This document shows positions 36 to 29,229 of a stretch of DNA of 64,000 bases, piece by piece. The first letter of the stretch is position 1. The number at the start of each line of letters is the position of its first letter. The notes beneath the pieces were generated by a model, which was not told where the DNA came from, did not search any database, and saw only the letters and a program-made list of their open reading frames with translations. The stretch is from Sandaracinaceae bacterium. Its GTDB lineage: Bacteria; Myxococcota_A; Polyangia; Polyangiales; Sandaracinaceae. A program made the position numbers and the translations under genes. The stretch spans positions 15,621 through 79,620 of the forward strand of contig JBILLJ010000019.1 in the NCBI GenBank assembly GCA_044376125.1, read 5' to 3'.

Positions 36-719
36 ATGCGCGAAGACGCTCTGACGCGCTGTCTCGGCATCGCGCCCGCGTCGGCGCGCGGCCTCTTCGA
101 GAACGGCGCGTTCCTCATGCCCCAGTGGCTCGACGCGGTCCGCGAAGAGCCCGACTTCTTGCGCCTGCGCGTGCTCGACGAGCAGCTCGCGCGGAACATG
201 GCGGTCGACGTGCCGATCGTGTCGAACCTCCTTCGCGCGGAGTACTTCCTCCTCGTGGTGCAGCAGGGGGAGAACCGCCGCGACGCGCCCGTCGACGTCT
301 ATCTCTGGGACCTCCGCGAGAACCGGCAGCTGCTCCGCACGCGCATCCAGGCGCGCGGCGTGCTCATCCCGGTGCGCATCGATCGCATGCTGCCCGGCGT
401 GCAGGTGCAGGCCGCACCGGGCGTGCCCGCGATGACCTCGGGCGGCGCGCACGACTGCTCGATCGCCGCGCAGATCAAGGCGATCACGGGCGACAGCGTC
501 GTCGAGGTCGGCACCGACACGATCGAGACGCTGACGGGCGCGCGCGAGGCCGCCGCCGCGGAGGCCGCCGCAGCCGAAGGCGCGACCCCGAGCGAAGGCG
601 CGACGGCACCGAGCGAAGGCACGACCGCACCGAGCGAAGGCGCGACCGCACCGAGCGAAGGCGGGCCCACGGAAGCCGAGGGCACGACCGCGCCGAGCGA
701 GGGCAGCGCGCAGCCGTAG
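36..719 (+). CDS. hypothetical protein, possibly 5'-truncated by the window edge; C-terminal TAPSEG(A/T) heptapeptide repeats
   Basis: Balanced composition in ORF-track frame. The frame stays open back to nt 3, so the true start may be upstream of the window. Six in-frame 21-bp repeats at 588-713. Confidence 0.6.
   Translation: MREDALTRCLGIAPASARGLFENGAFLMPQWLDAVREEPDFLRLRVLDEQLARNMAVDVPIVSNLLRAEYFLLVVQQGENRRDAPVDVYLWDLRENRQLLRTRIQARGVLIPVRIDRMLPGVQVQAAPGVPAMTSGGAHDCSIAAQIKAITGDSVVEVGTDTIETLTGAREAAAAEAAAAEGATPSEGATAPSEGTTAPSEGATAPSEGGPTEAEGTTAPSEGSAQP
588..713 (+). repeat. in-frame 21-bp coding tandem repeat (about 6 units, ccgagcgaaggcRcgacSgca)
   Basis: Direct reading of consecutive 21-nt units encoding (T)APSEG(A/T). 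Confidence 0.8.
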
Positions 720-796
720 CTCGAGTGGGTGAGCGCGACGGGACGAATCGATCCCGAGCTTTGCTTCCCGCGCGCGGCGGCGCACGATGCGCCGCG

Positions 797-1561
797 ATGA
801 GACAGAACCCGCTCGCCCTGGTCGCCACCATCGTCAGCCTCGCGATGTCGGGCATCTGCTGCGTCGCCGGCATGGCCTTCGTGCTCTTCACGACCGTGAT
901 GCGCGGGACCAGCACGCCCGAGCCGATCTACGCGGAGGCGCCGGTGTACGCGCCGCCCCCGACGTACGTGCCACCGGTGCGCCCGGCCCCGAGCGGCGTG
1001 ACGGGCGACGTGGCCACGGGCTCGCTCGCCATCGCGGACAACGCGACGCGCGGTCCGGTCGGCGCACCGATCACGATCCACGTGGTGAGTGACTTCCAGT
1101 GCCCGTTCTGCTCGCGCGTCGAGCCGACGCTCGCGCAGCTCGACGCTGCCAACGCCGGCCAGATCCGCTGGGTCTGGCACGACTACCCGCTGCCCTTCCA
1201 CCAGAACGCGATGCCCGCCGCGGAGGCTGCACGCGAGGTGCGTCGGCAGCTCGGTGACGAGGCCTTCTGGCGCTTCCACGACGCGCTCTTCGAGAACAAC
1301 CGCTCGCTCGACGCGTCGAGCATCGAGCAGCTCGCGAGCGCGACGCCAGGCCTGGACATGGCGGCGTACCGGACCGCGATGCAGTCGCACCAGCACGAGG
1401 CGGCGGTTCGCGCCGACATGGCGGCCGTCGACGCGGCGGTGTCGTCGGGCTCGGTCGGTACGCCCTGCTTCCTCATCAACGGCCAGTGGCTCCGTGGCGC
1501 GCAGCCCCTCGCGCGCTTCCAGGAAGCGGTCGACGGCGCACGCGCGCGGCCGTCGATGTGA
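797..1561 (+). CDS. DsbA-like thioredoxin-fold thiol:disulfide oxidoreductase with N-terminal membrane anchor
   Basis: Internal ATG at 797 in ORF 125..1561. TM helix LALVATIVSLAMSGICCVAGMAFVLF. CPFC redox motif (SDFQCPFCSR). C-terminal GTPCFLINGQ typical of the DsbA family. Confidence 0.85.
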   Translation: MRQNPLALVATIVSLAMSGICCVAGMAFVLFTTVMRGTSTPEPIYAEAPVYAPPPTYVPPVRPAPSGVTGDVATGSLAIADNATRGPVGAPITIHVVSDFQCPFCSRVEPTLAQLDAANAGQIRWVWHDYPLPFHQNAMPAAEAAREVRRQLGDEAFWRFHDALFENNRSLDASSIEQLASATPGLDMAAYRTAMQSHQHEAAVRADMAAVDAAVSSGSVGTPCFLINGQWLRGAQPLARFQEAVDGARARPSM

Positions 1562-1647
1562 GACGCGACGGGACGCTCGCGAAGAAATTTCGCGACGCGA
1601 CGCAACGCACGTCGTGACGAGCCGACAACGGGCCCATCGGAGGTCCC

Positions 1648-3117
1648 ATGTCGCAGAGTCATTCGGAACGCGCGTCTCTTCTTCCCCCTCACCAGACGGA
1701 GCTCTCTCGCTACGTGCCCGTGCGTGCGCTCGGGACGGGCGGCATGGCCGAGACCTTCGTCGCGCGCTCGATCGACCCCGCGCGCCCAGAGCTCGTCTGC
1801 CTCAAGCGGCTGCGACCCGCGCTCGCCGCCGATCCCGCGCAGCGCGCGCACTTCGCCGACGAGGCGCGTGTTCTCTCGCGGCTGTGCCACCCGAACGTGC
1901 TCTGTGTGCTCGATGCAGGGACCGACCTCGAGGGTCCGTTCCTCGTCACCGAGCTCGTCGACGGCCTGGACCTGCGCCGCCTCCTCGTCTGGCTCTCCGA
2001 CCTGGGTGAGCCGATGCCCGAGCCCATCGCGCTCCGCATCGCGCACGACGTCGCCGAGGCCCTCGCGCACGCGCACGGTCACGGCGTCGTGCACCGCGAC
2101 GTCACGCCCGCGAACGTGCTGCTCGGTCGAGAGGGCCGCGTGGTGCTGATCGACTTCGGCATCGCCCGCAGCGACGCGCAGACGCAGCGCACGCGCACGG
2201 GGCTCGTGAAGGGCAAGGCCGCGTACATGGCGCCCGAGCAGGCGCTGGGCAGCAAGCTCGACGCACGCACCGATCTCTTCGCGCTCGGCGTGATGCTCTT
2301 CGAGATGCTCGCCGGGCACCGACCGCACGACGGCACGAGCGACGTCGAGACCGTCACCAACGCGCTCCGCGGCAAGCGACGCGCGCTCGGGCGCCCGCTC
2401 CAGACGAGCGGCCTCGATGCGCTCATCGACTCGATGCTCGACCCGCGCGCCTCGCACCGCCCCGACGATGCGACGCAGGTGGTGCGTGCCCTCGGTGGTG
2501 CGCCGCTCGCGAGCGTCGCAGAGCTCGCAGCCTGGGTCCGCACCGCGTGCGACACGCCCGGCCGCACCACGGCGCCGCGCGAGAGCGGCACGCGCAAGAG
2601 CGCGCGCGCCAAGCACCCCGAGACGCTCACGGTGCCCGAGCACGCCATCCACACCTCGGAGGTCCCGGGTTCGGCCATCGACGCGATCGAAGCGGGCGCG
2701 GAGCTGCCGGTCGTGCGCGGCTGGCGCGCCGAGACCGATCCACCGACGTCGCTCGACACCACGCGCGACCCGCTCAGCCAGAGGCACGACGAATACGCCT
2801 GGCAGCCCGAGCAGGTGCCGGCCGGCGACGACACCGTCGTCATGCCGCGCTTCGAGGATCGAGGCGAAGACGACGCGCCACGCACGGAGCTGTCCCCGGC
2901 GCTCGATCTCCCGCGAGGCGAGGCGCGATCGATGCTCGGCGAGCGCGGTCGCGAGACCTTGCCCGTCCTGGCGCCGCGTCCGGCACCCGCACCGCCGGCG
3001 CCGCGGCCACGACGCGTGGCGATGATGCTGCGCACCGCCGCGACGCTCGCGGGAGGGCTGCTCGCAGGCGCGGTGACCGGCGGCGCGGTCGCGCTGCTCC
3101 TGCGCTGTGTGTCGTGA
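1648..3117 (+). CDS. Hanks-type Ser/Thr protein kinase with C-terminal TM segment
   Basis: Glycine loop GTGGMAETF, VCLK lysine, HRDVTPANVLL catalytic loop, DFG, YMAPE. Hydrophobic C-terminus LAGGLLAGAVTGGAVALLL. Confidence 0.9.
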   Translation: MSQSHSERASLLPPHQTELSRYVPVRALGTGGMAETFVARSIDPARPELVCLKRLRPALAADPAQRAHFADEARVLSRLCHPNVLCVLDAGTDLEGPFLVTELVDGLDLRRLLVWLSDLGEPMPEPIALRIAHDVAEALAHAHGHGVVHRDVTPANVLLGREGRVVLIDFGIARSDAQTQRTRTGLVKGKAAYMAPEQALGSKLDARTDLFALGVMLFEMLAGHRPHDGTSDVETVTNALRGKRRALGRPLQTSGLDALIDSMLDPRASHRPDDATQVVRALGGAPLASVAELAAWVRTACDTPGRTTAPRESGTRKSARAKHPETLTVPEHAIHTSEVPGSAIDAIEAGAELPVVRGWRAETDPPTSLDTTRDPLSQRHDEYAWQPEQVPAGDDTVVMPRFEDRGEDDAPRTELSPALDLPRGEARSMLGERGRETLPVLAPRPAPAPPAPRPRRVAMMLRTAATLAGGLLAGAVTGGAVALLLRCVS

Positions 3118-3180
3118 GTCGGACCGAGAGACCATCCGCTCGAGACACGTCCGAACGGACGCGCGGCGCGCGCAGGGCCC

Positions 3181-3217
3181 TCAGAGCGTGCGTCACTTGC
3201 ATTGACGCACGCTCTGA
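3181..3217. repeat. REP-like perfect palindrome (15-bp arms tcagagcgtgcgtca / tgacgcacgctctga, 7-nt loop)
   Basis: Arms are exact reverse complements. Lies between convergent genes. The reverse complement matches the 17107-17143 copy at 32/37 positions. Confidence 0.85.
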
Positions 3218-3293
3218 CGTTTCTTGCCGGAGGGTCTGGCCGCAGCCCCTCCCTCTCGCCGAGTGAATCGGCGAGAGCCTCCCTCCCGCCGAT

Positions 3294-3342
3294 TCGAGCA
3301 CGTCCCACTCGCATCGATCCATCCAAGTGACACGTGCTCTCA
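3294..3342. repeat. degenerate copy of the same palindrome family (tccaag + tgacacgtgctctca), overlapping the oxygenase stop codon
   Basis: Loop plus right arm resembles gtccaag+tgacgcacgctctga of the 17107 copy. An 8-bp stem gagcacgt/acgtgctc is retained. Confidence 0.45.
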
Positions 3343-4722
3343 GGCGGGAAGCCAGAGCCCGTGGAAGGTCATCGGAACCCACTCGGGAAAGCGGAGCGTC
3401 GCGATCGGCTCGTCTTCGAAGCGCGCGGTGTCGAGCACGCGCACGTGGCTGCGATCGTCGGCGGGATCGTGGACGAGCGCGAGCGCCCAGCCATCGCCTT
3501 CGGGCGCGTCGGGGCTGCGAGGCACGAACACGATCTCGGATCCGGCGAGCCCGTCGGCCAGCGGATGAAGGCGCGCGCGACCGCTCCGCGTGTCGAAGCG
3601 GACGAGGTGTCGATGGCCCTCGTGCTCCTCGGTGAGGAAGACGTTCGTGAACGGCGCGTCGGCGCGACCCTCGAAGCGAGGATCGACGCGAGGGAACTCG
3701 CAGCGGCCGTCCCAGAGCGGCTCGACGTCGAGGCGGCGACGCTGCGGATCGATCCGTGCGCGCACGAGCACGCCGGTGGAGCGTGGGCCCGTCTTGCGGA
3801 GCCCTTCGAAGGTCTCGAAGTCCGGGTGTCGGACGAAGAGCGTCTCGATCGCGTCGCCGTCGTCGCGCGCGCCCGCGAAGTGCCACTGGAAGAACGGGTC
3901 CACGGGGAAGCGCGTGACCTCGCTCGGACGATCGAGCGGGACGACGATCACCTCGACGCCCGCCTCGGGGTGGTAGGTGACGAGGCGCGAGAAGTCGCCG
4001 AGGCCGAGCAGCGCACGCACGAGATCGATGCGCACGGGAGACACGAGGAAGAGCGCGCGCGTCGGCGTGACCGCGAAGTCGTGGAGCATCACCGGGTGCG
4101 GCAGGGGCACGCTGCCGAGCTCGCGCGTGGCCGGTGAGCCGCGGTCGGCGAGCTCGTAGAGGTGGATGGTGGTCGTCGGTCCGTACTCGAGACCGAAGCC
4201 GATGGTCGCGGCGCGATCGAGCACGCGGTGCGGGTGGGCCGAGAACGCGTCGCCGATCACCCCGAGGTGCGTCTCGCCGATCGTCTCGAGGGTGCGCGGA
4301 TCGATCGCCGTCGGCGGGCCCGACTCGACGAGCGCGAAGAGTCGATCGCGAAAGGTCATGAGCGCGGTGTTGCCGGTGTTCTTTCGACCGTGGCCGCGCT
4401 TGGTGAGCGTGCGGAGGCTGTTCCAGAGCCGTCGCGGATAGAACGCGCGCGCACCGAAGAGCGGGCGGCCAGCGTGGCGCTCCTCGAGCAGGCCACGGCT
4501 CTGGACGAGGCGCACGGCCCCCTCGGCCCGCGGCGCGCCGGAGGGGCCCGTGATGCGGACCGCCGAGAGCGCGCCGTCTGCCTCGAAGGAGTGTCCGACG
4601 GGCCGGCCGAACAGCTCGTAGAGGCCGGGGCCCGTGCGCACGAGGGTGCCGCGGAGGCCATCGGGGATCGTCCCGGTGACCTCGAGCGCGCTGAACGGGA
4701 GCTCGCGCGCGATGGACTTCAT
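3340..4722 (-). CDS. carotenoid cleavage oxygenase (RPE65/CCD) family protein
   Basis: Start trimmed to MKSIARELPF (cat at 4720-4722). Family-typical blocks: GTLVRTGPG, HSFEADGALS, NTALMTFRDRLFALVESGPP, HDFAVT, FHGLW C-terminus. Confidence 0.9.
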   Translation of the reverse strand: MKSIARELPFSALEVTGTIPDGLRGTLVRTGPGLYELFGRPVGHSFEADGALSAVRITGPSGAPRAEGAVRLVQSRGLLEERHAGRPLFGARAFYPRRLWNSLRTLTKRGHGRKNTGNTALMTFRDRLFALVESGPPTAIDPRTLETIGETHLGVIGDAFSAHPHRVLDRAATIGFGLEYGPTTTIHLYELADRGSPATRELGSVPLPHPVMLHDFAVTPTRALFLVSPVRIDLVRALLGLGDFSRLVTYHPEAGVEVIVVPLDRPSEVTRFPVDPFFQWHFAGARDDGDAIETLFVRHPDFETFEGLRKTGPRSTGVLVRARIDPQRRRLDVEPLWDGRCEFPRVDPRFEGRADAPFTNVFLTEEHEGHRHLVRFDTRSGRARLHPLADGLAGSEIVFVPRSPDAPEGDGWALALVHDPADDRSHVRVLDTARFEDEPIATLRFPEWVPMTFHGLWLPA

Positions 4723-4871
4723 GTCGCCGCGCAATCGAGGGGCCCGAGGTGTGGGGGAGCGTGTCTCGGGGGAGCGTTCGGGCGTGGTCCGCATCGGGGA
4801 CGAGGATAGTGGGGCGAGCGCGGCGCGATCGACTTGTTCCGACGTGGGCCCTAAGCTGCCGCGCTTTCTGC

Positions 4872-5918
4872 ATGGACCCCGGTGCGAAGACCCCTGCCGC
4901 GCGCGAGCGCGAGGCGCCTGCGAGCACGACGCCGAGCGCGAGCGACCCGAGCGCGGACGTGGCCGCGACCGAGGCCGCCGCGGGCGCGACGCGCGAGCCG
5001 CGGCGACCGAGCCTGTGGTGGCTCGTGCTCGCGATCGGTGTGGTGGAGATCCTCGGGCAGCTCGTGATCGAGGCGCGCGTCGCACCTCGGAGCGAATGGC
5101 AGCAGGCGCTCGGTGCGGTGCGCGCCGAGTGGCAGGAGCACGACGCGCTCGTCGTCGCGCCGCGCTGGGCCGATCCACTCCTGCGCGAGGCCGCGGGCGA
5201 TCTGATCGATCGCGAGATGGCGGGCCACAGCGATCTCGCCGCCTATGGGCGGCTCTGGGTCGTCTCGATCCGCGGCCACCGCTCGAGCGAAGCGCCCCCG
5301 GAGCCTCCCGAGCTCTCGCGCGACTTCGGTCGTGTGCACGTCGAGCGCTGGACGCTGCCAGCGCCGCGCGTGCTCTACGACTTCGTCGAGCACGTGGGCG
5401 AGGCGAACGTCACGCGCCGTGAGCGAGGCCAGGACCTGCCGTGTCGGACGATCACCTCGATGGGTCAGACCATGGGCGGCCTCGCGAACGGGCCGATCGA
5501 GACGGCGCCGCGACACCTCTGTGATCCGGGTCGGCCGTGGCTCTGGGTCGGCGCGACGACGACGATGGACCTCGAGCTGCGCGGGCGGCACTGCATCTCG
5601 CAGCACGCGCAGGGCAGCGAGCCGATCTCGACGAGCTACGACGACGTGCCGCTCGGCGAGACGGTCGTGCTGCACGGCGGCATCTGGTGGGAGCGCGAGC
5701 GCTGGCGCAACGGCGGAGACGTCGAGGTCGTGGTCCGACTCGACGGTGAGGAGATCGGCCGCATGACGCACCACGACGGCGACGGGTGGAAGCGCATGGA
5801 GGCTGCCATCCCCGAGGCGCGCCGCGGCGGTCGTGGTCGCGTCTCGGTCGACGTGTCCGCCGAGAACCCCGAGTTCCGCGCGTTCTGCTGGGCGGGCTCG
5901 ACCAGGAGCGGCTCGTGA
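4872..5918 (+). CDS. hypothetical membrane-anchored protein
   Basis: ATG at 4872 in ORF 4749..5918. One TM helix (LWWLVLAIGVVEILGQLVI), then a globular part. The stop overlaps the next gene's start (GTGA). Confidence 0.7.
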   Translation: MDPGAKTPAAREREAPASTTPSASDPSADVAATEAAAGATREPRRPSLWWLVLAIGVVEILGQLVIEARVAPRSEWQQALGAVRAEWQEHDALVVAPRWADPLLREAAGDLIDREMAGHSDLAAYGRLWVVSIRGHRSSEAPPEPPELSRDFGRVHVERWTLPAPRVLYDFVEHVGEANVTRRERGQDLPCRTITSMGQTMGGLANGPIETAPRHLCDPGRPWLWVGATTTMDLELRGRHCISQHAQGSEPISTSYDDVPLGETVVLHGGIWWERERWRNGGDVEVVVRLDGEEIGRMTHHDGDGWKRMEAAIPEARRGGRGRVSVDVSAENPEFRAFCWAGSTRSGS

Positions 5919-8999: not shown

Positions 9000-9334
9000 C
9001 GGGGCCTCGGCCGTGTCGCGTGGGGGGCGTGTCCCGTGGGGGACGGGCCGACCGTCGGGCAGGCCGCGATCGCGGTCAAAAAAACGTCGCCCGCCAGGGG
9101 TCAGAGCATTCGTCGGGGCCTCGTGACGCGAGGGTGCGGGCGCCTTCTCCCCACGCGGCTCCCCTCGCCCCACGGAGGCTCCTCAGCGGGATCGACCGCC
9201 GACGCGCGATGGACCGCCCCCGACACGCAGCTGCGAGGACGGAACACGTCCACCCCGCTCGGCGCGCTGGCCTGCGGGGACATCTCGCCCTTCGCGTGTC
9301 GCGAGGGCATGGGGAGCTCGAGACCCGGCGAGGG

Positions 9335-10279
9335 CTACCTCACTTCCATCACTTCCATCGGCACGGGGATGCGGGGCGGAAAGGTCCCTGCGGGGAACGG
9401 ACAGAGCGCGCCGGTCTCGCGGTAGCGCGCCGAGGCGAGCTCGTAGGCCTCCATGACGCGATCGTAGGCGTCGCGGAACGCCTGCACCTCGTCGTCGGTC
9501 CCGTGCGCCCACGGCTGCGGGGACTTCTCCTCGTCGGGCGTGCGACGCGCGAGGCGGTTCGGGTCCTCCGTCGTGTGCTTGGACGGTTCGGGCAAGCGCT
9601 TCGCGCCGCGCGCGCGTCGCTCGAGCGCGACGTCGCGCTCCACGTCCTTCATGCGCTGCGCGAGCGCTTGGCGCTGCGCGCGCAGCTCGCGCTCGGACAT
9701 CTCAGCCCGATGCGGCAGCACGCTCAGCGGCACCGACGCGGTCCGCGTGAACTCGCCGCGCTCCTCACGACGCGCGCCGGCCTCGCGCCAGCTCGCCTCG
9801 TCGAACCAGTGCGCCTCGACCGAGCTGCGGCCCTCGACGATCGCCCCGTACGAGCACAGCCCCGGCCACTCGATCGCTCGCTCCACCAACCCGTGATGCA
9901 CCGACTGCTGGTGCACGTACTGCTCGATGCCCACCGCCGCCTCCACCGACAGGATCGCCTCGTCGCGGTAGCGCCCCTTGAAGAACGCGCCGTCGCGCTC
10001 GCGGTGGACGTTGAGCGTGCGAGCGATGCGGCTCTTGAGGAGCTGCATGAAGAGATCGAGCCGACAGCCGCGCACGCCGAGCAAGAGGTGCGCGTGCGTG
10101 GATAGGAAGCAGAACGCGTGGATGCGCACGCCGTACTTGGTCGCGGCCTCCTCGAGCGCGCAGGCGATCACGAACGAGGTGTACGCGTCGGGCCGCATGA
10201 GGAACGCGTCACCGACACACTTGAACGAGACGTGGATGAGGTCTTGCCCCGGAGGCAGATAGCGACGACGACGGGCCAT
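9335..10279 (-). CDS. HUH/Y1 transposase-fold protein (IS200/IS605 TnpA-like, COG1943 / REP-associated tyrosine transposase-like) with a long C-terminal extension
   Basis: Start trimmed to MARRRRYL (cat 10277-10279). HUH motif STHAHLLL. Tyr motif EQYVHQQSVHHGLVERAIEWPGLCSY, analogous to the canonical YIHxNPVxAGLV..WPWSS. Colinear paralog at 25155-26081. Confidence 0.8.
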   Translation of the reverse strand: MARRRRYLPPGQDLIHVSFKCVGDAFLMRPDAYTSFVIACALEEAATKYGVRIHAFCFLSTHAHLLLGVRGCRLDLFMQLLKSRIARTLNVHRERDGAFFKGRYRDEAILSVEAAVGIEQYVHQQSVHHGLVERAIEWPGLCSYGAIVEGRSSVEAHWFDEASWREAGARREERGEFTRTASVPLSVLPHRAEMSERELRAQRQALAQRMKDVERDVALERRARGAKRLPEPSKHTTEDPNRLARRTPDEEKSPQPWAHGTDDEVQAFRDAYDRVMEAYELASARYRETGALCPFPAGTFPPRIPVPMEVMEVR

Positions 10280-10402
10280 GGTGGACGCGTTGTCGGGCGG
10301 GCTGCCCGCGCGTTGCGTCCTCGCCACGAAAAAGAACGGGGTCAGAGCACGCCCTGGCGGCGACCGCGCGTTTCGGGCGAGGCTCGCGCTCGGAGAGCAC
10401 GG

Positions 10403-10882
10403 ATGAAGATCCTCCTGATGCGTCACGGCGACGCCGTCCGTCACGACGGCCTCGACGAAGCCCGCCACCTCAGCCGGACCGGTCGGCACGACGTCCTCGC
10501 CGTCGCCCGCGCCCTCGTACCCAAGCTCCATGGGCTCCGCATCGCGCACGTGTTGTCGAGCCACCTCGTTCGGGCCGTGCAGACCGCGGAGATCGTGTGC
10601 CACGAGCTCACCCGCGCCGGCGTCGAGGTCGACCCCATGGTCCACGCTGACCCGCGCTTCGAGCCCGATGGCTCCCCGCGCCATGCCGCACAGCGCCTCG
10701 AGCAGCTCGCGACCGAGCACGCCCCGGCGGCCATCCTCTGCGTGTGCCACGAGCCCATCGTGCGAGGGCTCGCGACACACCTCGCCCCCCGTTCTGGCGG
10801 TGCGCCCTTCGCGACCAGCGCCATCTCCCTCGTCGACGGCGGCCTCGTCGCCTGGACGCTCGACCCCCGAACGCTGCTCTGA
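10403..10882 (+). CDS. sixA: phosphohistidine phosphatase SixA (histidine phosphatase superfamily)
   Basis: MKILLMRHGDA catalytic RHG motif. About 159 aa. Colinear with E. coli SixA blocks (VLSSHLVRAVQTAE, CVCHEP, FATSAI). Confidence 0.8.
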   Translation: MKILLMRHGDAVRHDGLDEARHLSRTGRHDVLAVARALVPKLHGLRIAHVLSSHLVRAVQTAEIVCHELTRAGVEVDPMVHADPRFEPDGSPRHAAQRLEQLATEHAPAAILCVCHEPIVRGLATHLAPRSGGAPFATSAISLVDGGLVAWTLDPRTLL

Positions 10883-10886
10883 CCCC

Positions 10887-16705: not shown

Positions 16706-17095
16706 ATGAACGACAACTCTGGCATCGAGCACGTGGTCTTCTCCTACTTCGGCGCCTTCGGCCGCGGCGACGTCGAGGCCATCCTCATGCACTACGCCGA
16801 CGACGCGGTCTTCATGCCCGCGAACCTCCCGACGGTGGTGGGCAAGGATCGGCTGCGCGTCGCGTACGAGCGGACGCTCGAGCGTGTGCGGATCCTGCCC
16901 GGCGGCCAGTCGATCGCCGAGGACGTGATCACCCTCGGCGAGCTCGCCTGGGTCCGTACCGACAGCCGCGCCACCGCGGCCGATCCGCACACCGGGACGC
17001 AGACCGAAGGTCATTTCCGAGAGGTCTTCCTCCTGCGCCGGGTCTCCGGCGAGTGGAAGATCTGGCGCTACATGTTCAACACCCTGGTGGAGTAG
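16706..17095 (+). CDS. SnoaL-like / NTF2-fold (DUF4440-type) protein
   Basis: About 130 aa. VVFSYFGAFGRGDVEAILMHYADDAVFMP and C-terminal EWKIWRYMFN are typical of the NTF2-like fold. Confidence 0.75.
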   Translation: MNDNSGIEHVVFSYFGAFGRGDVEAILMHYADDAVFMPANLPTVVGKDRLRVAYERTLERVRILPGGQSIAEDVITLGELAWVRTDSRATAADPHTGTQTEGHFREVFLLRRVSGEWKIWRYMFNTLVE

Positions 17096-17106
17096 TGGGC
17101 AGAACG

Positions 17107-17143
17107 TCAGAGCATGAGTCAGTCCAAGTGACGCACGCTCTGA
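17107..17143. repeat. REP-like palindrome, second copy (tcagagcatgagtca-gtccaag-tgacgcacgctctga), opposite orientation to 3181-3217
   Basis: 13/15 stem pairs. Right arm identical to the 3203-3217 arm. Lies between convergent genes. Confidence 0.8.
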
Positions 17144-17167
17144 GACGCTCGGGGCGACGACGTCTCC

Positions 17168-17434
17168 TCACCGACTCGCCAGACGCGCCTCGAGCCGCGC
17201 CAGGACCGCCTCGGGCGGCTCGGCTGCGCTCGCGCGGATCGCCCGCACCGCCCGACCGAACTCGCCGCCGAAGCGCTCGCAGTGCGAGCAGCCCCGCACG
17301 TGCGCCTCGACCTTGTCGCGCGTGGTCCGATCGAGACCACCGGCGAGGTACTCCGTGAGGCCGGCGAGCACCTGACCACAGCGTAGCCCGGCGACCTCGC
17401 GCTCCCCCGGCAACGTCTTCGGATCGGAGCTCAT
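17168..17434 (-). CDS. zinc-binding anti-sigma factor (ZAS, zf-HC2) domain protein
   Basis: HVRGCSHC = HxxxCxxC motif. Start overlaps the sigma stop (ATGA). 88 aa with no TM segment. Confidence 0.75.
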   Translation of the reverse strand: MSSDPKTLPGEREVAGLRCGQVLAGLTEYLAGGLDRTTRDKVEAHVRGCSHCERFGGEFGRAVRAIRASAAEPPEAVLARLEARLASR

Positions 17435-25154: not shown

Positions 25155-26081
25155 ATGGCCAACAACATCGCCTGGTACCCACCCGACATCGTCTACTACG
25201 AGATCGTCATCAAGTGCGCGGGCGATCAGATGCTCATGCGCCCGGACGAGAAGACGACGTGGATCATCGCGGACGTCCTCGGCCACGTGGTGCGCAAGCA
25301 CGACATCCCGCTGTACGCGGTCGCCTGCGTGTCGACGCACGGACACCTCATCGTCGGCAGCCGTCCGGAGCTGCGTCTGGACAAGGTGCAGCAGGACCTC
25401 AAATCACAGCTCGCGAAGCGCCTCAACGTCGAGCGCGACCGGATCGGTGTCTTCTTCCAGCGCAAGAAGCCCATCCCGATCCTCTCCACCGAGGCCTTCT
25501 TCGACCGGCTCCGGTACACGCACGCCCAGCCCGTGCATCACGGCATGGTCGAGCGCGTCGAAGACTGGCCCGGGCTCTCGAGCTTTCGTGCGGTCGTCGA
25601 GGGCAAGCCCTCGATCGAGGCGAGCTGGTTCGACGAGCGCTCGTGGCGCGACGCAGGTGCCGACCCGACGCAGAAGGCGGCGTTCCTGCACGTCGCGACG
25701 GTGCCGATCACGCCGCCGCCCGAGTGGGACGGCCTCACCGACGAGCAGCTCCGATTCCAGCGCGCGGCACACGAAGAGTCCGTGCGCGACCGCGAGCGCG
25801 AGCAGGCCGCCGCCCGCGGCACGAGTGCTCCCCCGCCACCGGAGCCGAGCCACTATCGACAGGTCGATCCGTTCTCGCGTCCCGTCGGTCCGATCCAGCG
25901 TCGACCGGCACCGATCGCGCACGGATCCGCAGACGAGGTGGCCGAATACCGACGGCGGTATCGCATCGTCGTTGCGGCACACCGCGAGGCCTCGGCGCAG
26001 TATCGGGCGACCGGCAAGCTCTGTCCGTTCCCGCTGGGCACCTTCCCGCCACGCATCGAAGTCCCGTTCGAGACGGCGTAG
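25155..26081 (+). CDS. HUH/Y1 transposase-fold protein (COG1943 / RAYT-like), paralog of 9335-10279
   Basis: ATG at 25155. STHGHLIVG (HUH). LRYTHAQPVHHGMVERVEDWPGLSSF (Tyr motif). Shares the C-terminal YRxTGxLCPFPxGTFPPRIxVP with the paralog. Confidence 0.8.
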   Translation: MANNIAWYPPDIVYYEIVIKCAGDQMLMRPDEKTTWIIADVLGHVVRKHDIPLYAVACVSTHGHLIVGSRPELRLDKVQQDLKSQLAKRLNVERDRIGVFFQRKKPIPILSTEAFFDRLRYTHAQPVHHGMVERVEDWPGLSSFRAVVEGKPSIEASWFDERSWRDAGADPTQKAAFLHVATVPITPPPEWDGLTDEQLRFQRAAHEESVRDREREQAAARGTSAPPPPEPSHYRQVDPFSRPVGPIQRRPAPIAHGSADEVAEYRRRYRIVVAAHREASAQYRATGKLCPFPLGTFPPRIEVPFETA

Positions 26082-26163
26082 GACGCGCTCGGACCTCGGC
26101 TCCTCGCCTCGCGGCCCTGCGTGTGGCCCTCGAGGGGCTTGCTGCTATCGTCGGCGCCCTTCG

Positions 26164-27135
26164 ATGAACGCCGCCCCCGCATCCACGCGCAAGAAACGCG
26201 CTCCGAAGATCACCGACGTGCGCGCGGGGCGCGTCGCGATCGTCGGCCGACCCAACGTCGGCAAGTCGACGCTGCTCAACGCGCTCGTCGGACAGCGCCT
26301 CGCGATCACGACCCCCAAGCCCGGCACCACGAGGACGGTGCTCCTCGGTGTCCACGACGGCACCGACGACGAGGGACGTCGCACGCAGATCGCCTTCCTC
26401 GACACGCCTGGTCTGGAGTCGCCGCGATCCGTGCTCGGGCGCGTCCTCGTAGAAGAGGCACAAGGTGCGCTCGAGAGCATCGACGCCATCGTCCTCATGG
26501 TCGACGCCGCGGACGTCGCGCGGGCGGGCGATCTCGCGCCGGCCGATCAGCGCGTCCTCTCGCTCCTCGATCCGTTCGCCAAGCCCGTCGTGCTGGTGCT
26601 CAACAAGGTCGATCGCGTGAAGGACAAGGCGAAGCTGCTCCCCGCGCTCGAGAAGCTCGAGAAGAAGAAGCGGTTCGCCGCGCTCGTGCCGCTGAGCGCG
26701 ACCCGTGGCAGTGGGCTGGGCGGGCTGGTCTCGGAGCTCCGCGGTCACCTCGGCACCGCGCTCCTCTACGACGACGACAGCGTGACGGACCGCCCCGAGC
26801 GCTTCTTCGTCTCCGAGCTCGTGCGAGAGGCCATCCTCGGAGCAACGCGCGAGGAAGTGCCGTACGGCACGGCCGTGCTCGTCGACGAGTGGGTCGAGGA
26901 AGGCAACCTCGTCCGTGTCGGTGTGACGATCGTCGTCGAGAAGGACTCGCACAAGGGCATCCTGATCGGCGCACGCGGCACGAAGCTCAAGGAGATCGGC
27001 GAGTCCGCCCGTCTCGCGATCGAGAGCTTCCTCGAGCGGAAGGTCTTTCTCCGAACCTTCGTCAAGGTCGTCCCTGGATGGACCAAGGACGCCGCCAAGG
27101 TGCGACGCCTCGTCCACGAAGGCGTCCTGCCCTGA
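26164..27135 (+). CDS. era: GTPase Era
   Basis: GRPNVGKST (G1), DTPG (G3), NKVD (G4), C-terminal KH domain (VEKDSHKGILIGARGTKLKEIG). Confidence 0.95.
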   Translation: MNAAPASTRKKRAPKITDVRAGRVAIVGRPNVGKSTLLNALVGQRLAITTPKPGTTRTVLLGVHDGTDDEGRRTQIAFLDTPGLESPRSVLGRVLVEEAQGALESIDAIVLMVDAADVARAGDLAPADQRVLSLLDPFAKPVVLVLNKVDRVKDKAKLLPALEKLEKKKRFAALVPLSATRGSGLGGLVSELRGHLGTALLYDDDSVTDRPERFFVSELVREAILGATREEVPYGTAVLVDEWVEEGNLVRVGVTIVVEKDSHKGILIGARGTKLKEIGESARLAIESFLERKVFLRTFVKVVPGWTKDAAKVRRLVHEGVLP

Positions 27136-27136
27136 C

Positions 27137-27181
27137 CTCCGAGGAGCCGGTCTCCGAGGAGCCCGTCTCCGAGGAGCCCCT
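27137..27181. repeat. 15-bp tandem repeat x3 (ctccgaggagccSgt) starting 2 nt after the era stop
   Basis: Three consecutive units read directly; units differ at 1-2 positions. Confidence 0.85.
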
Positions 27182-27254
27182 CACCACTCCGTGGCGCGCT
27201 CGGTCGGCTCACGGCGGGTCTCGACAGTCTCCGAGCACCACCGAAAGCCGCACG

Positions 27255-28718: not shown

Positions 28719-28812
28719 CGCGCTCGCCGCCGCGTCAGGCCCGGTACGAGGTCATGGCGGCGGCGCGCCCGAGACGCTATCGTCCCGCCCCGCCACCCCC
28801 CCGGAGGCTGCT

Positions 28813-29226
28813 TTGTTCGCTCGCTCGCTGGCCCGAGTGACCGCTCACTCACTCTTTCGTTCGACCCACGCGCTCCGCTGCGCTGCGCTCTTCGGGAGCC
28901 TGCTCGGCCTCGCGCTCGTCGCACCCGGATGCTCGAACGGCGTCGGCTCGAACTGCGAGATCTCGCAGGACTGCGCCTCGGGCCTGACCTGCTGCACCGC
29001 CAGCTGCGCGAACCCCGCGCGTGGCACCTGCCAGGCGAGCTGCGACGGCGTGGTCTGCGTCGACGCCGGCACGTCCGAGGTGGATGCAGGCACGTCCGAG
29101 GTGGATGCCTTCGCGTCGACGGAGACGGACGCGTTCACCCCGAGCGAGCCCGACGCGTCCAGCACGCGCGATGCGTTCACCCCGAGCGAGCCCGACGCGG
29201 CGTCGGACGTCGACGGAGGGACCTGA
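28813..29226 (+). CDS. small Cys-rich lipoprotein with Asp/Ala-rich tail
   Basis: TTG start. Lipobox LVAPGC. Nine Cys in about 60 aa (SNCEISQDCASGLTCCTASCANPARGTCQASCDGVVC). The stop is 3 nt before the kinase GTG. Confidence 0.6.
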   Translation: MFARSLARVTAHSLFRSTHALRCAALFGSLLGLALVAPGCSNGVGSNCEISQDCASGLTCCTASCANPARGTCQASCDGVVCVDAGTSEVDAGTSEVDAFASTETDAFTPSEPDASSTRDAFTPSEPDAASDVDGGT

Positions 29227-29229
29227 ACC

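What the first reader, a model, noticed from the sequence alone, without database searches (positions are those of the whole stretch)
3118..3342. Hairpin-dense convergent intergenic region carrying a perfect 37-bp REP-like palindrome and a decayed second copy
Between the kinase stop (3117) and the oxygenase stop (3340) there are three structures:
- A perfect 15-bp-arm palindrome tcagagcgtgcgtca-cttgcat-tgacgcacgctctga (3181-3217).
- A 9-bp-stem hairpin gaatcggcg/cgccgattc (3265-3295).
- A degenerate relative of the first element (tccaag+tgacacgtgctctca, 3322-3342) that runs into the oxygenase stop codon.
The reverse complement of the perfect element matches the element at 17107-17143 at 32/37 positions. 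It is therefore a dispersed repeat family rather than a one-off terminator.
Basis: seen in the sequence. Interest (0 to 1): 0.65.

Follow-up and report, generated by a model that had tools for sequence, protein, structure and literature searches.

The report
Stop-codon-seeking hairpin mobile element
The three hairpins between the kinase and oxygenase genes are one copy of a roughly 160-bp non-coding mobile DNA element that sits in hundreds of copies in freshwater Sandaracinaceae (myxobacteria), always inserts next to the triplet TGA (often a gene's stop codon), and is probably moved by a REP-type tyrosine transposase rather than being a home-grown terminator.

Summary
The perfect 37-bp palindrome (3181-3217), the 9-bp hairpin (3265-3295) and the 'decayed copy' (3322-3342) are three parts of one element on the minus strand. 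They are its right hairpin, its middle hairpin and its left inverted-repeat end. The core is 156 bp (3184-3339), flanked by TGA on both sides.

- **Dispersed family:** one related MAG gave at least 95 right ends in 430 kb. In lake metagenomes that hold the window genome at about 10x, summed depth over exactly 3180-3343 is 700-5800.
- **Insertion here:** orthologous loci in sister species have a 24-33 nt spacer. The window element lies immediately after the oxygenase stop codon TGA.
- **Target:** flanks are C-TGA / TGA-G in a single orientation. Head-to-tail tandems share one TGA. About one third of copies use a gene's stop codon.
- **No parent:** no autonomous element was found. An ISKra4-family IS and a group II intron joined to the element are guests inserted into it.
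- **Candidate transposase:** two divergent RAYT-like (HUH/Y1) genes lie in the window. One is flanked by a conserved 12-mer, GGGGTCAGAGCA, that shares TCAGAGCA with the hairpin foot.

Verdict: a new MITE/REPIN-like family. Mobility is well supported. Mobilisation by the RAYT-like gene is plausible but unproven.

The parts
3181..3342 (-). One full-length copy of the repeat family: a 156-bp core (3184-3339) plus the flanking TGA trinucleotides, which read TCA on the + strand at 3181-3183 and 3340-3342.
   Evidence: It aligns end to end with the MAG consensus, 145/156 identical. nhmmer with the family profile gives E=7.7e-50 over 3180-3343. The depth step and the loose ends in lake metagenomes fall at 3179/3180 and 3342-3347. 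It is absent from the orthologous spacer in sister species.
3340..3342 (-). Left-flank TGA. This is the native stop codon of the RPE65-family carotenoid oxygenase gene (3340-5178, minus strand) and the target triplet of the insertion.
   Evidence: The alignment with L076, L077 and L078 shows the stop at the same codon, with the element starting at the next base. The left flank is TGA in 50 of 58 MAG copies.
3296..3339 (-). Left terminal hairpin (LH). It contains the left inverted repeat GAGCACGTGTCACTTGGATGGA.
   Evidence: Folds. About 22 bp are 77% identical to the reverse complement of the right end. Differences between the window copy and the MAG consensus at positions 10, 15 and 31 keep pairing.
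3265..3295 (-). Its 3' arm can pair instead with 3253-3262, giving the small palindrome CGCCGA-TTCAC-TCGGCG.
   Evidence: Folds. It is identical in the window copy and the MAG consensus. The small palindrome is where the ISKra4-family IS inserts in the MAG.
3229..3252 (-). Internal hairpin H3, GGAGGG-GCTGCGGCCAGA-CCCTCC.
   Evidence: Folds. It is invariant between the two lineages. The group II intron in the MAG copies joins the element at its 5' arm, just before GGGCTGCGGCC.
3181..3217 (-). Right terminal hairpin (RH): a perfect 15-bp-arm palindrome with the oriented loop ATGCAAG. Its outer arm ends in the right-flank TGA.
   Evidence: RH is perfect and near-identical in 78 of 83 MAG copies. 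The lineages differ by two compensated pairs: A8/T30 to G8/C30 and A11/T27 to C11/G27.
3181..3227 (+). On the opposite strand, RH followed by CGTTTCTTGC makes a terminator-like site 64 nt downstream of the kinase stop codon.
   Evidence: It is the only terminator-like hit in 2900-3600, against 0.2 expected. The tail is part of the family consensus (GGCAAGAAACG on the element strand). Function was not tested.
17098..17143 (+). 5'-truncated 'solo' copy: the right hairpin (17107-17143, a hybrid of MAG-type left arm and window-type right arm) plus about 9 nt of the upstream leader (GGCAGAACG). It lies between the SnoaL-like gene stop (17093-17095) and the anti-sigma gene stop (17168).
   Evidence: nhmmer E=1.2e-9 to profile positions 83-164. 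It is absent from the same spacer in three relatives, L091, L093 and L095. A metatranscriptome contig spans it.
9350..10279 (-). RAYT-like (HUH/Y1) tyrosine transposase gene, paralog 2. It is the candidate trans-acting mobiliser; this is inferred, not shown.
   Evidence: tblastn and BLASTP: 44% identical to paralog 1 and 41% to P0115. The family profile's best PDB hit is E. coli TnpArep 4ER8 (E=4e-4). HUH His62/His64 and Tyr121 are invariant. It is syntenic in L086-L089.
9097..9108 (+). GGGGTCAGAGCA motif, 242 nt downstream of paralog 2. It is followed by decayed arm-like sequence (TCAGAGCATTCGTCG ... TGACGC).
   Evidence: It is conserved in L086-L089.
10338..10349 (+). A second, identical GGGGTCAGAGCA motif, 59 nt upstream of the paralog 2 start codon.
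   Evidence: It is conserved in L086-L089, where the following bases match the hairpin arm at 12/15.
10875..10886 (-). A third GGGGTCAGAGCA, inverted. It overlaps the stop codon of the neighbouring His_Phos_1 (SixA-like) gene.
25155..26081 (+). RAYT-like tyrosine transposase gene, paralog 1 (308 aa). No family motif was found in its flanks.
   Evidence: NCBIfam REP_Tyr_transpos E=8.4e-10 at 38.7 bits, below the cut-off of 80. Pfam Y1_Tnp E=5e-4, below the gathering score. No family hairpins or shared flank motif.

Best explanation
Window 3181-3342 (minus strand) is one full-length copy of a high-copy, non-coding, non-autonomous mobile element of freshwater Sandaracinaceae.

**Anatomy.** The 156-bp core folds as single-stranded DNA or RNA into four consecutive hairpins, LH, H2, H3 and RH. 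Its ends are about 22-bp imperfect inverted repeats. The right end is doubled into a perfect 37-bp palindrome.

**Shown:**
- The element inserted into the oxygenase-kinase spacer exactly after the oxygenase stop codon.
- Across the family it lies between C-TGA and TGA-G in one fixed orientation relative to TGA.
- New copies can land on the TGA at the end of an existing copy, giving head-to-tail tandems that share one TGA.
- About a third of copies use a gene's TGA stop codon. This share matches the share of stop codons among non-disruptive CTGAG sites.

**Inferred.** The short asymmetric target, the fixed orientation and the hairpin ends fit strand-specific cleavage and joining by an HUH tyrosine transposase supplied in trans. 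The best candidate is the single-copy, syntenic RAYT/TIRYT-like gene at 9350-10279. Its conserved flanking 12-mer GGGGTCAGAGCA carries the same TCAGAGCA that forms the foot of the element's hairpin.

**Side effect, inferred.** Each copy brings a strong hairpin followed by a T-rich tract in the antisense direction. This may terminate or stabilise the converging transcript, here that of the kinase.

I put the chance that this is a mobile element and not a host-made terminator above 0.95. I put mobilisation by an HUH/RAYT-like enzyme at about 0.45-0.5. The confidence value given for this explanation is for the whole statement, including the inferred mobiliser.
For: **Dispersed family with defined ends**
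- Conservation spans -126 to +38 around the palindrome and stops sharply there.
- The core is 156 bp in 41 of 58 full copies.
- Lake metagenomes give flank depth of about 10 against 700-5800 over 3180-3343. About 90-130 contigs per run carry many different flanks.

**Insertion**
- Sister-species loci have 24-nt or 33-nt spacers and the same stop codon.
- The solo copy at 17107 is absent in three relatives.

**Target and orientation**
- The left flank is TGA in 50/58 copies and the right flank in 92/95. TCA occurs only twice on each side, and those counts include a false match. C precedes at 81% and G follows at 88%.
- No variation at the flanking triplets was reported at a 3% threshold in four unbiased metagenome runs.
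- Tandems spaced 159 bp share one TGA. One copy is nested at the inner TGA of another copy's hairpin.
- 18 of 55 MAG copies, plus the window copy, end an upstream ORF in frame. Unoccupied CTGAG sites split into 29 stop codons and 60 intergenic sites.

**Structure**
- Fold z-scores are -9.9 and -8.9.
- All 11 differences between the window copy and the MAG consensus lie in LH and RH. RH keeps a perfect palindrome through two double changes, and the central 80 nt are identical.

**HUH candidate**
- The family profile's best PDB hit is E. coli TnpArep, with invariant HUH histidines and catalytic tyrosine.
- The 8-mer TCAGAGCA occurs three times on the window + strand. Two of these flank paralog 2 within identical 12-mers, and the third is the element copy at 17107.
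- The 12-mers are conserved in an 80% ortholog locus and appear as a tandem GAGGTCAGAGCG in a 65% ortholog.
- The 12-mer fits the GGGGWSAS motif reported for repeats flanking TIR-associated tyrosine transposases (PMC3733652). Three of the 10 such sites in the window surround paralog 2.
- A sister clade of these genes is flanked by arrays of its own short motif, GGTCCGACACC.

**Terminator-like site:**
Against: - **No biochemical or genetic evidence for the mobiliser.**
- **Weak flank similarity:** the RAYT-like flanks share only a 9-mer, GTCAGAGCA, with the element. A profile of the whole element does not detect them. No intact family hairpin flanks either RAYT-like gene.
- **Motif orientation:** the two motifs nearest paralog 2 are direct, not inverted.
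- **DDE-like features:** inverted-repeat ends starting GAG with a 3-bp TGA on both sides also look like a classical DDE-type MITE with a TNA duplication.
- **Indistinguishable products:** a 3-bp duplication and insertion 3' of TGA by an element ending in TGA give identical sequences, so the empty site cannot separate them.
- **No strand bias:** neighbouring copies more than 200 nt apart are in the same orientation 6 times and opposite 4 times. This does not show the strict replication-strand bias of IS200/IS605 elements.
- **Ascertainment bias:** the MAG flank statistics are biased, because the scan pattern required the right-hand TGA. The orientation claim therefore rests mainly.
- **Copy number:** the estimate assumes that all laid contigs come from the window's population.
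Confidence: 0.5

Rival explanations
1. It is a classical MITE, a deletion derivative of a DDE-transposase insertion sequence. The most likely source is the IS5 family, IS1031/IS427-like, whose members duplicate a 3-bp TNA target. It would be mobilised by that transposase binding the about 22-bp terminal inverted repeats. The flanking TGAs would be a true target-site duplication of the centre of a CTNAG site.
For: - Imperfect 22-bp terminal inverted repeats beginning GAG.
- The same trinucleotide on both sides, within a palindromic-type context C-TNA-G.
- Small size, no ORF, internal-deletion variants that keep both ends, and tandem or nested copies.
- IS1031-group elements recognise three nucleotides as their insertion site (PMC2516522). 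That their ends start GAG and the target is TNA is my own recollection of the ISfinder tables, not a tool result.
Against: - Orientation is fixed relative to the asymmetric central base: TGA in almost every copy against a handful of TCA, with no minor TCA class at 3% in unbiased metagenome data. A symmetric cut-and-duplicate mechanism should give both.
- No IS with these ends was found in the window, in 430 kb of MAG loci or in plasmids.
- The only transposase joined to the element, ISKra4-family, is an insertion into it, with its own inverted repeats and duplication.
Confidence: 0.25
2. It is a derivative of a canonical IS200/IS605 element, a palindrome-associated transposable element. It would be moved by an ordinary multicopy TnpA (Y1) located elsewhere in the genome, not by the single-copy RAYT-like genes. 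Insertion would be 3' of CTGA on the lagging-strand template.
For: - A short (4-5 nt), strand-specific target.
- No distinguishable duplication.
- Hairpins at both ends.
- The right end finishes with the same tetranucleotide, CTGA, as the target.
Against: - No IS200/IS605 TnpA or TnpB was seen in the window or in the MAG loci. tblastn with recalled TnpA sequences found only the RAYT-like gene.
- The end hairpins are related to each other as inverted, not direct, repeats.
- The hairpins abut the cleavage sites without the usual linker.
- No local strand bias: 6 same against 4 opposite.
Confidence: 0.08
3. It is a host-evolved regulatory feature: a bidirectional terminator or mRNA-stabilising hairpin cluster for the convergent kinase and oxygenase genes, duplicated locally. 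This is the reading the first reader wanted to exclude.
For: - The location between convergent genes.
- The right hairpin plus a T-rich tail scores as terminator-like on the + strand.
- A transcript contig crosses the 17107 copy.
Against: - The whole 162-bp block is absent from the same spacer in sister species.
- It is present at over 90% identity at about a hundred or more unrelated loci.
- It has sharp common boundaries and a fixed target triplet.
- Only one direction has a T tract.
Confidence: 0.02
4. It is a retro-mobilised, SINE-like structured RNA. The element would be transcribed and its 3' hairpin recognised by a reverse transcriptase, for example that of the group II introns found in the same genomes. 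It would then be copied into nicked CTGA|G sites. This would explain the fixed orientation, the head-to-tail tandems and the 5'-truncated copies.
For: - 5'-truncated copies with an intact right hairpin: window 17098-17143, L018 and L085.
- Orientation-specific insertion.
- A group II intron reverse transcriptase is present in the MAG.
Against: - Truncated copies are few (3-4 in about 100) and no more common than internal deletions that keep both ends.
- The intron copies are inserted inside the element, like the IS guests.
- No Rfam family matches.
- No known bacterial system works this way.
Confidence: 0.04

Closest known systems
REPIN-RAYT systems (REP doublets mobilised by single-copy REP-associated tyrosine transposases; Bertels & Rainey 2011, PMC3116915; Bertels et al. 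2017, PMC5581495)
   Same: - Short, non-coding, hairpin-forming extragenic repeats at about 10^2 copies per genome.
- Lineage-specific sequence variants that keep their palindromes.
- Location mostly at gene 3' ends.
- Single-copy, syntenic and apparently vertically inherited HUH/Y1 genes in the same genome, whose best structural relative by sequence is E. coli TnpArep.
   Different: - The unit is 156 bp with four separate hairpins, not two inverted REPs folding into one long hairpin.
- There is no GTAG tag.
- The abundant 16-mers of the element are not found next to the RAYT-like genes. Only a 9-12-nt motif is shared.
- A fixed TGA target and head-to-tail tandems are not features I know of for REPINs (my own knowledge).
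- The RAYT-like proteins are about 310 aa, score below the NCBIfam and Pfam cut-offs, and come from Myxococcota.
TIRtrons / TIRYTs and their TIR repeat families (Di Nocera et al. 2013, PMC3733652)
   Same: - Tyrosine transposase genes flanked not by GTAG REPs but by other repeats.
- Several of those repeats share GGGGWSAS, and the window's GGGGTCAG fits it exactly.
- Moderately abundant dispersed families of those repeats are often found in dimers or clusters, and some are self-complementary.
   Different: - In that paper the dispersed repeats are the flanking TIRs themselves. Here the flanks share only the hairpin foot with the dispersed element.
- The two motifs nearest the gene are direct, not inverted.
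- That paper does not mention myxobacteria: 'Myxococc', 'Sorangium' and 'Deltaproteobacteria' each occur 0 times in it.
Bacterial MITEs derived from DDE insertion sequences (for example Correia/NEMIS, and IS5/IS1031-type MITEs with 3-bp TNA duplications)
   Same: - Size, terminal inverted repeats, no coding capacity and a short flanking repeat.
- Internal-deletion variants.
- Insertion at gene ends, with possible terminator or promoter effects.
   Different: - Fixed orientation relative to the asymmetric target.
- No parent IS with matching ends was found.
- The right end is duplicated into a perfect palindrome.
CGTC-tagged REPs (Di Nocera et al. 2013)
   Same: In the element, the tetranucleotide CGTC sits at the 5' foot of the right hairpin (AAACGTCAGAGC). 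That paper reports no dedicated transposase for CGTC repeats.
   Different: - CGTC families have 8-9-bp stems, 4-5-nt loops, an unpaired tag and a CCA tail.
- Here the stem is 15 bp, the loop is 7 nt, the TC of the tag is paired, and the hairpin is part of a larger unit.
IS200/IS605 elements and their palindrome-associated derivatives
   Same: - Strand-specific insertion 3' of a 4-5-nt target without a distinguishable duplication.
- Hairpin ends.
- HUH chemistry as the inferred mechanism.
   Different: - The end hairpins are inverted relative to each other and abut the junctions.
- No tnpA or tnpB partner was seen.
- No local strand bias.

Membership tests
REP / REPIN-RAYT system | A short (20-40 bp) imperfect palindrome present in high copy, mostly extragenic. 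| tested here: met
   The 37-bp right hairpin was found in at least 95 places in 430 kb of MAG loci and at 100-500 times flank depth in lake metagenomes. It occurs mostly as part of a 156-bp unit, not on its own.
REP / REPIN-RAYT system | The mobile unit is a doublet of two REPs in inverted orientation that folds into one long hairpin. | tested here: not met
   The predicted folds give four separate local hairpins. The two ends are inverted repeats of about 22 bp at 77% identity, but they are separated by about 80 nt that forms its own hairpins.
REP / REPIN-RAYT system | A conserved unpaired GTAG tetranucleotide at one end of the REP. | tested here: not met
   There is no GTAG at either hairpin foot. 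The foot reads AAACG|TCAGAGC.
REP / REPIN-RAYT system | A single-copy RAYT gene with the repeats, as abundant 16-mers, in its flanking extragenic space (PMC5581495). | tested here: inconclusive
   Two RAYT-like genes are present. Paralog 2 is flanked by GGGGTCAGAGCA three times, conserved in orthologs, and shares a 9-mer with the hairpin foot. No 16-mer of the element is there, and nhmmer with the element profile finds nothing.
REP / REPIN-RAYT system | The RAYT protein has the HUH motif, the catalytic Tyr and RAYT-specific similarity. | tested here: met
   His62, His64 and Tyr121 are invariant in 24 homologs. The best PDB hit is TnpArep 4ER8, E=4e-4. NCBIfam REP_Tyr_transpos gives E=8e-10, at 38.7 bits below the curated cut-off of 80.
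TIRtron / TIRYT-associated repeats | A tyrosine transposase gene flanked by terminal inverted repeats, many with a GGGGWSAS motif. | tested here: inconclusive
   GGGGTCAG fits the motif. Three of the 10 sites in the window surround paralog 2. The two sites nearest the gene are direct. The inverted partner at 10886 lies beyond the neighbouring gene.
DDE-type MITE (IS5/IS1031-like) | Terminal inverted repeats. | tested here: met
   GAGCACGTGGCACTCGGATGGA matches the reverse complement of the right end, GAGCATGAGTCACTTGGATTGA, at 17/22.
DDE-type MITE (IS5/IS1031-like) | A target-site duplication generated on insertion. | tested here: inconclusive
   TGA is on both sides, and the empty site has one TGA. 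The same product arises if an element ending in TGA inserts 3' of TGA. The near absence of TCA-flanked copies argues against a symmetric duplication.
DDE-type MITE (IS5/IS1031-like) | A parent IS with the same ends encoding the transposase. | tested here: not met
   None was found in the window, in 75 MAG loci or in PLSDB plasmids. A whole genome could not be searched.
IS200/IS605-derived element | Insertion 3' of a specific 4-5-nt target in one orientation, without duplication. | tested here: inconclusive
   The pattern is compatible: C-TGA|element...CTGA|G, tandems sharing one TGA, fixed orientation. Duplication cannot be excluded.
IS200/IS605-derived element | Orientation bias with the direction of replication. 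| tested here: inconclusive
   Only local pairs could be tested: 6 same against 4 opposite. A closed genome is needed.
Intrinsic terminator | A G+C-rich hairpin followed by a T tract, at the end of a transcription unit. | tested here: met
   Met on the window + strand only (3181-3227). It is a built-in part of the repeat consensus. Termination activity is not testable with these tools.
Known RNA family (Rfam 15) | A covariance-model match at or near the gathering score. | tested here: not met
   The best hit is Atu_L6 at 18 bits against a gathering score of 100, E=0.14.

The most novel reading that the evidence does not exclude
The most novel reading not excluded is a REPIN-like system outside the Gammaproteobacteria with an unusual rule.

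- A four-hairpin, 156-bp element would be moved by a divergent, domesticated RAYT/TIRYT-type HUH transposase.
- That enzyme would read the single-stranded motif CTGA|G, so the element homes in one orientation onto TGA stop codons.
- The insertion regenerates the stop and delivers a one-way terminator to the converging gene.
- Element ends and enzyme would co-evolve by lineage, through compensated changes confined to the terminal hairpins.

Because the candidate enzyme, its conserved flanking motif and hundreds of substrates are all identified, the long-debated RAYT mobilisation mechanism would become directly testable in a new phylum.
Probability: 0.35. Interest if true: 0.65.

Novelty: new member of a known kind. 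Interest (0 to 1): 0.48.

Why it matters
**Annotation.** A roughly 160-bp block that overlaps stop codons and breaks assemblies will be mis-read as terminators, small RNAs or 'decayed repeats' in Sandaracinaceae genomes.

**Mobile-DNA biology.**
- The family gives a clean natural data set of hundreds of near-identical copies, two lineage-specific subfamilies and several empty sites.
- It could help answer how short hairpin repeats are spread. Direct evidence that RAYT-type enzymes move REP-like elements is scarce.
- Its fixed orientation on an asymmetric 5-nt target is a strong mechanistic clue.
- It shows how target choice plus purifying selection puts an element on stop codons without any special preference for them.
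- In the MAG the element serves as a landing pad for ISKra4-family insertion sequences and a group II intron.

The case remains a new family within known kinds (MITE/REPIN), not a new principle.

Tried and rejected
1. **ISKra4-family transposase as the parent.** A transposase gene is joined to the right-end module in L019 (NCBIfam E=1.6e-55). Rejected: both junctions are visible (L024:5155 and L019). They show the IS's own inverted repeats (GGTGCAGCTGG...) and a duplicated CCGATTCACTCGG, so it inserted into the element. Variants C and E end in the same ...GCACC and are probably related guests.
2. **Variant B (L006, L015, L054).** This is a group II intron (RVT_1 + GIIM), also a guest.
3. **Long repeats among MAG loci.** A search for a multicopy parent found only tandem element copies. 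The bulk Pfam scan of all MAG ORFs was therefore dropped.
4. **Empty site from window-MAG synteny.** L035 and L009 are syntenic, but the intergenic DNA is too diverged to align. Closer relatives were used instead.
5. **Metagenome scan for the window-type arm.** It gave a single hit, L085. That collection evidently lacks the source lake samples. Copy number was obtained by laying Logan contigs instead.
6. **Other searches.**
   - Rfam gave nothing meaningful.
   - PLSDB plasmids in distant blastn mode gave no match.
   - phmmer of paralog 2 against PDB sequences gave no hit. The family profile did give one.
7. **nhmmer of the element profile against the RAYT-like flanks.** No hit. The RAYT link is therefore reported as suggestive only.
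8. **Hairpins next to the RAYT-like genes.** None of the family was found.
10. **Metatranscriptomes.** Only two low-depth contigs touch the element. This gives no usable evidence on termination.
11. **CRISPR-like reading of the 159-bp-spaced repeats.** Rejected, because the 'spacers' are the conserved body of the element.
Full report
**1. The observation**

The sequence is as described.
- Positions 3181-3217 are a perfect palindrome with 15-bp arms and a 7-nt loop. It is the only perfect inverted repeat of 15 bp or more in the 64-kb window. About 0.006 are expected from base composition.
- The 9-bp stem at 3265-3273 / 3287-3295 is present.
- The 21-mer at 3322-3342 is present. It matches 17123-17143 at 17/21 and ends in the stop codon of the minus-strand ORF 3340-5178.
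- The loop is conserved as well (ATGCAAG versus GTCCAAG), so the palindrome has a direction.

The neighbours are a Ser/Thr protein kinase (1648-3117, +) and an RPE65-family carotenoid oxygenase (3340-5178, -). The window has about 72% G+C. Its closest relatives are Sandaracinaceae, Myxococcota.

**2. What the three structures are**

Of these, 74 came from a single MAG, JBKDQC01, labelled 'Deltaproteobacteria bacterium'. That MAG is a syntenic relative of the window, with 78-89% nucleotide identity in genes.

I oriented the copies by their loop and stacked them. Conservation does not stop at the palindrome. It runs from 126 nt upstream to 1 nt downstream and then drops to background. The unit is:

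[C TGA] GAGCACGTGGCACTCGGATGGATCGATGCGGGTGCCACGGGCTC GAATCGGCGGGAGGGAGGCTCTCGCCGATTC ACTCGGCGAGAG GGAGGGGCTGCGGCCAGACCCTCC GGCAAGAAACG TCAGAGCATGAGTCA ATCCAAG TGACTCATGCTC [TGA G]

The core is 156 bp in 41 of 58 full copies. Window 3184-3339 on the minus strand is a full-length copy, 145/156 identical to the MAG consensus.

- The perfect palindrome is the right terminal hairpin (RH).
- The 9-bp hairpin is an internal hairpin (H2).
- The 'decayed relative' is the left end. About 22 bp of it are an imperfect inverted repeat of the right end, inside a 44-nt left hairpin (LH).

As a single strand the unit folds into four consecutive hairpins, with z-scores of -9.9 for the window copy and -8.9 for the consensus. 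No Rfam family matches.

**3. Is it dispersed in the window's own organism?**

About 20 lake-water or freshwater metagenome runs hold the window sequence. I laid their contigs on 2800-3700 and on 3130-3400.
- Unique flanks have a depth of about 5-11.
- Summed depth over 3180-3343 is 700-5800.
- About 90-130 contigs per run lie on the element.
- Contigs leave the window sequence with many different continuations exactly at 3179/3180 and 3342-3347.

The ratio is similar in samples where the genome's own depth differs about two-fold. This fits about 10^2, perhaps 100-300, copies per genome. I cannot prove that all copies belong to one population.

At a 3% threshold the only variable positions are 3300, 3304 and 3305. 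The lake copies therefore share the window-type hairpin arms.

**4. It is an insertion**

Orthologous oxygenase-kinase loci from two sister lineages have spacers of 24 nt and 33 nt. Their oxygenases are 89% and 82% identical in protein to the window's. In the alignment the oxygenase stop codon TGA is in the same place, and the window element begins at the very next base.

The second copy at 17107 is a 5'-truncated form, the hairpin plus about 9 nt of leader. It lies between the stop of a SnoaL-like gene and the stop of an anti-sigma factor gene. It is absent from the corresponding spacer in three relatives.

**5. Target and orientation**

In the MAG loci the flanks are as follows.

| Flank | TGA | TCA | Adjacent base |
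|---|---|---|---|
| Left | 50 of 58 | 2 | C before, 81% |
| Right | 92 of 95 | 2 | G after, 88% |

One listed right-flank TCA is a false match to the window copy's own left end, and both left-flank exceptions in the table (L003, L004) still have TGA on the right.

- Head-to-tail tandem copies are spaced 159 bp and share a single TGA (L062, L065, L041, L043 and others).
- One copy sits on the inner TGA of another copy's hairpin (L047).
- The scan pattern demanded the right-hand TGA, so these counts are biased. However, the unbiased metagenome data show no minor letter at the flanking triplets, even at 3%.
- The element is thus tied in one orientation to an asymmetric target, 5'-C TGA G-3'.

Stop codons:
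- 18 of 55 full MAG copies, plus the window copy, use the left TGA as the in-frame stop of an upstream gene.
- TGA is 86% of stop codons there.
- Among unoccupied CTGAG sites that would not disrupt a gene, 29 are stop codons and 60 are intergenic.
- Landing on stop codons therefore follows from target choice plus selection. It is not an extra preference.

**6. Search for the enzyme**

Several MAG copies have foreign DNA joined to the right-end module.
- One is an ISKra4-family insertion sequence. Both of its junctions are visible, with its own inverted repeats and a duplicated CCGATTCACTCGG, so it inserted into the element.
- Another is a group II intron.
- No autonomous element with the family's ends was found in the window, in the loci or in plasmids.

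The window does contain two divergent HUH/Y1 genes, at 25155-26081(+) and 9350-10279(-). They are 44% identical to each other.
- Homologs are few (44) and come from Sandaracinaceae-type assemblies.
- A profile of the family finds E. coli TnpArep (4ER8) as its best solved relative.
- The HUH histidines and the catalytic tyrosine are invariant.

Paralog 2 is syntenic in an 80%-identical ortholog locus. It is surrounded by three identical 12-mers, GGGGTCAGAGCA, at 9097(+), 10338(+) and 10886(-).
- The 8-mer TCAGAGCA occurs only three times on the window + strand. The third is the element copy at 17107.
- The 12-mers are conserved at the same places in the ortholog locus. There, one is followed by a 12/15 match to the hairpin arm.
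- A 65% ortholog carries GAGGTCAGAGCG in a tandem repeat at the equivalent downstream position.
- The motif fits GGGGWSAS, which Di Nocera et al. reported for the repeats flanking 'TIRYT' tyrosine transposases (PMC3733652). Three of the 10 such sites in the window are around paralog 2.
- A third clade of these genes in other genomes is flanked by arrays of a different short motif, GGTCCGACACC.

Against this, a profile of the whole element does not detect the flanks, and no intact hairpin lies beside either gene. I regard the link as suggestive.

**7. Mechanism**

Shown:
- It is a non-autonomous, multicopy element with defined ends.
- It inserted here after the divergence of sister lineages.
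- It follows the C-TGA / TGA-G rule in one orientation.
- The terminal hairpins differ between lineages through structure-preserving changes. Two are fully compensated pairs in RH. Others are G-C to U·G or U·G to U-A type changes in LH.
- The central 80 nt are identical between the window copy and the MAG consensus.

Inferred: strand-specific cleavage and joining by an HUH tyrosine transposase acting in trans, most likely the paralog 2 family.

The main rival is a DDE-type MITE of the IS5/IS1031 kind, with a TNA duplication.
- It explains the inverted-repeat ends and the 3-bp flanks.
- It does not explain the fixed orientation or the missing parent.
- Empty sites cannot separate the two models, because both predict the same junctions.
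- Local orientation of neighbouring copies is mixed, 6 same and 4 opposite. This is not what strict lagging-strand targeting would give.

**8. Possible effect on the host**

On the window + strand, RH followed by CGTTTCTTGC is the only terminator-like site in the region. It lies 64 nt after the kinase stop codon. The tail belongs to the repeat consensus, so every full copy carries a one-way terminator-like module. The expression data were too thin to test this.

**9. Comparison and verdict**

The element works like a MITE or REPIN and sits closest to the poorly characterised repeat families associated with RAYT/TIRYT genes.
- It fails two defining REPIN features: the doublet that folds into one hairpin, and the GTAG tag.
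- It lacks the parent IS needed for a classical MITE.
- I found no description of it. Two literature searches on REPIN/RAYT and MITE/REP terms together with Myxococc* or Sandaracinus returned no paper on such repeats in this group, and a third (RAYT plus Deltaproteobacteria) returned nothing.

It is a new family within a known kind.

Noticed in passing
L019:1-1714, L024:5155-5330, L060, L034, L005/L021, L009/L013/L059 (MAG JBKDQC01): ISKra4-family insertion sequences, at least two or three variants that all end in ...GCACC, are inserted inside copies of the element at or near the small palindrome CGCCGA-TTCAC-TCGGCG. The same site is used repeatedly, so the element acts as a landing pad for another IS.
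   Followed up: partly
L015:13-855 and the junctions in L006, L015 and L054: A group II intron (RVT_1 + GIIM, with domain V/VI-like sequence GAGCCGTAT...ACGGTTC) is inserted in three element copies at the same point, just before GGGCTGCGGCC and downstream of hairpin H2. This resembles introns that home next to stem-loops (my own recollection of class C group II introns, not a tool result).
   Followed up: partly
L082:2630-2820 and 4165-4205; L083; L084:2725-2775 and 4160-4225: A third clade of the RAYT-like genes (P0115, P0104) is flanked on both sides by arrays of a short motif, GGTCCGACACC. L082 has 7 copies and L084 has 4, in inverted arrangement. This suggests clade-specific flanking repeats for this transposase family.
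   Followed up: partly
window 10875-10886 and L086:1815-1826: The third GGGGTCAGAGCA copy overlaps the stop codon of the His_Phos_1 (SixA-like) gene and lies just before the start of the next kinase gene (...CTGCTCTGACCCCATG). It is conserved between species. Together with the copy at 9097 it forms an inverted pair enclosing the RAYT-like gene and the phosphatase gene.
   Followed up: no
L090:928-993: An exact 32-bp tandem repeat, CGCTCTGACCTCTCACTCAGTTGGGGCGGGAC x 2.1, lies about 230 nt downstream of a 65% ortholog of RAYT-like paralog 2. It contains both CTGAG and GGTCAGAGCG on the opposite strand.
   Followed up: no
L046 (JBBAVG010000158.1, Phycisphaerales MAG): A 1.6-kb contig binned to a Planctomycetota MAG starts inside a copy with the MAG-type hairpin. 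Its G+C is 65%, against about 71% for the Sandaracinaceae MAG loci. This may be mis-binning, a chimeric contig end or a real transfer.
   Followed up: partly
L085:522-566 (SXGT01192117.1): A minimal 41-bp form, AACG plus the hairpin with hybrid arms, sits directly after a TGA stop codon and is followed by G. Even the shortest derivative obeys the TGA...TGA-G rule.
   Followed up: no
window 17066-17175 (run X25): A 151-nt metatranscriptome contig (depth 2) spans the SnoaL-like gene end, the solo hairpin and the anti-sigma gene end. Some RNA, or contaminating DNA, therefore reads through this hairpin.
   Followed up: no
L001-L075, contig ends: Many MAG contigs begin or end about 100-140 nt from the palindrome, for example at 102-138, 103-139 and 104-140. 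The assembly breaks inside the element, so this repeat is a main cause of fragmentation of that MAG.
   Followed up: partly
window 26100-29230: By my crude codon-position G+C caller, this stretch holds only short ORFs with atypically high G+C at the second codon position (for example 27209-28531 on the minus strand). It stands out from the well-called genes around it and was not examined.
   Followed up: no
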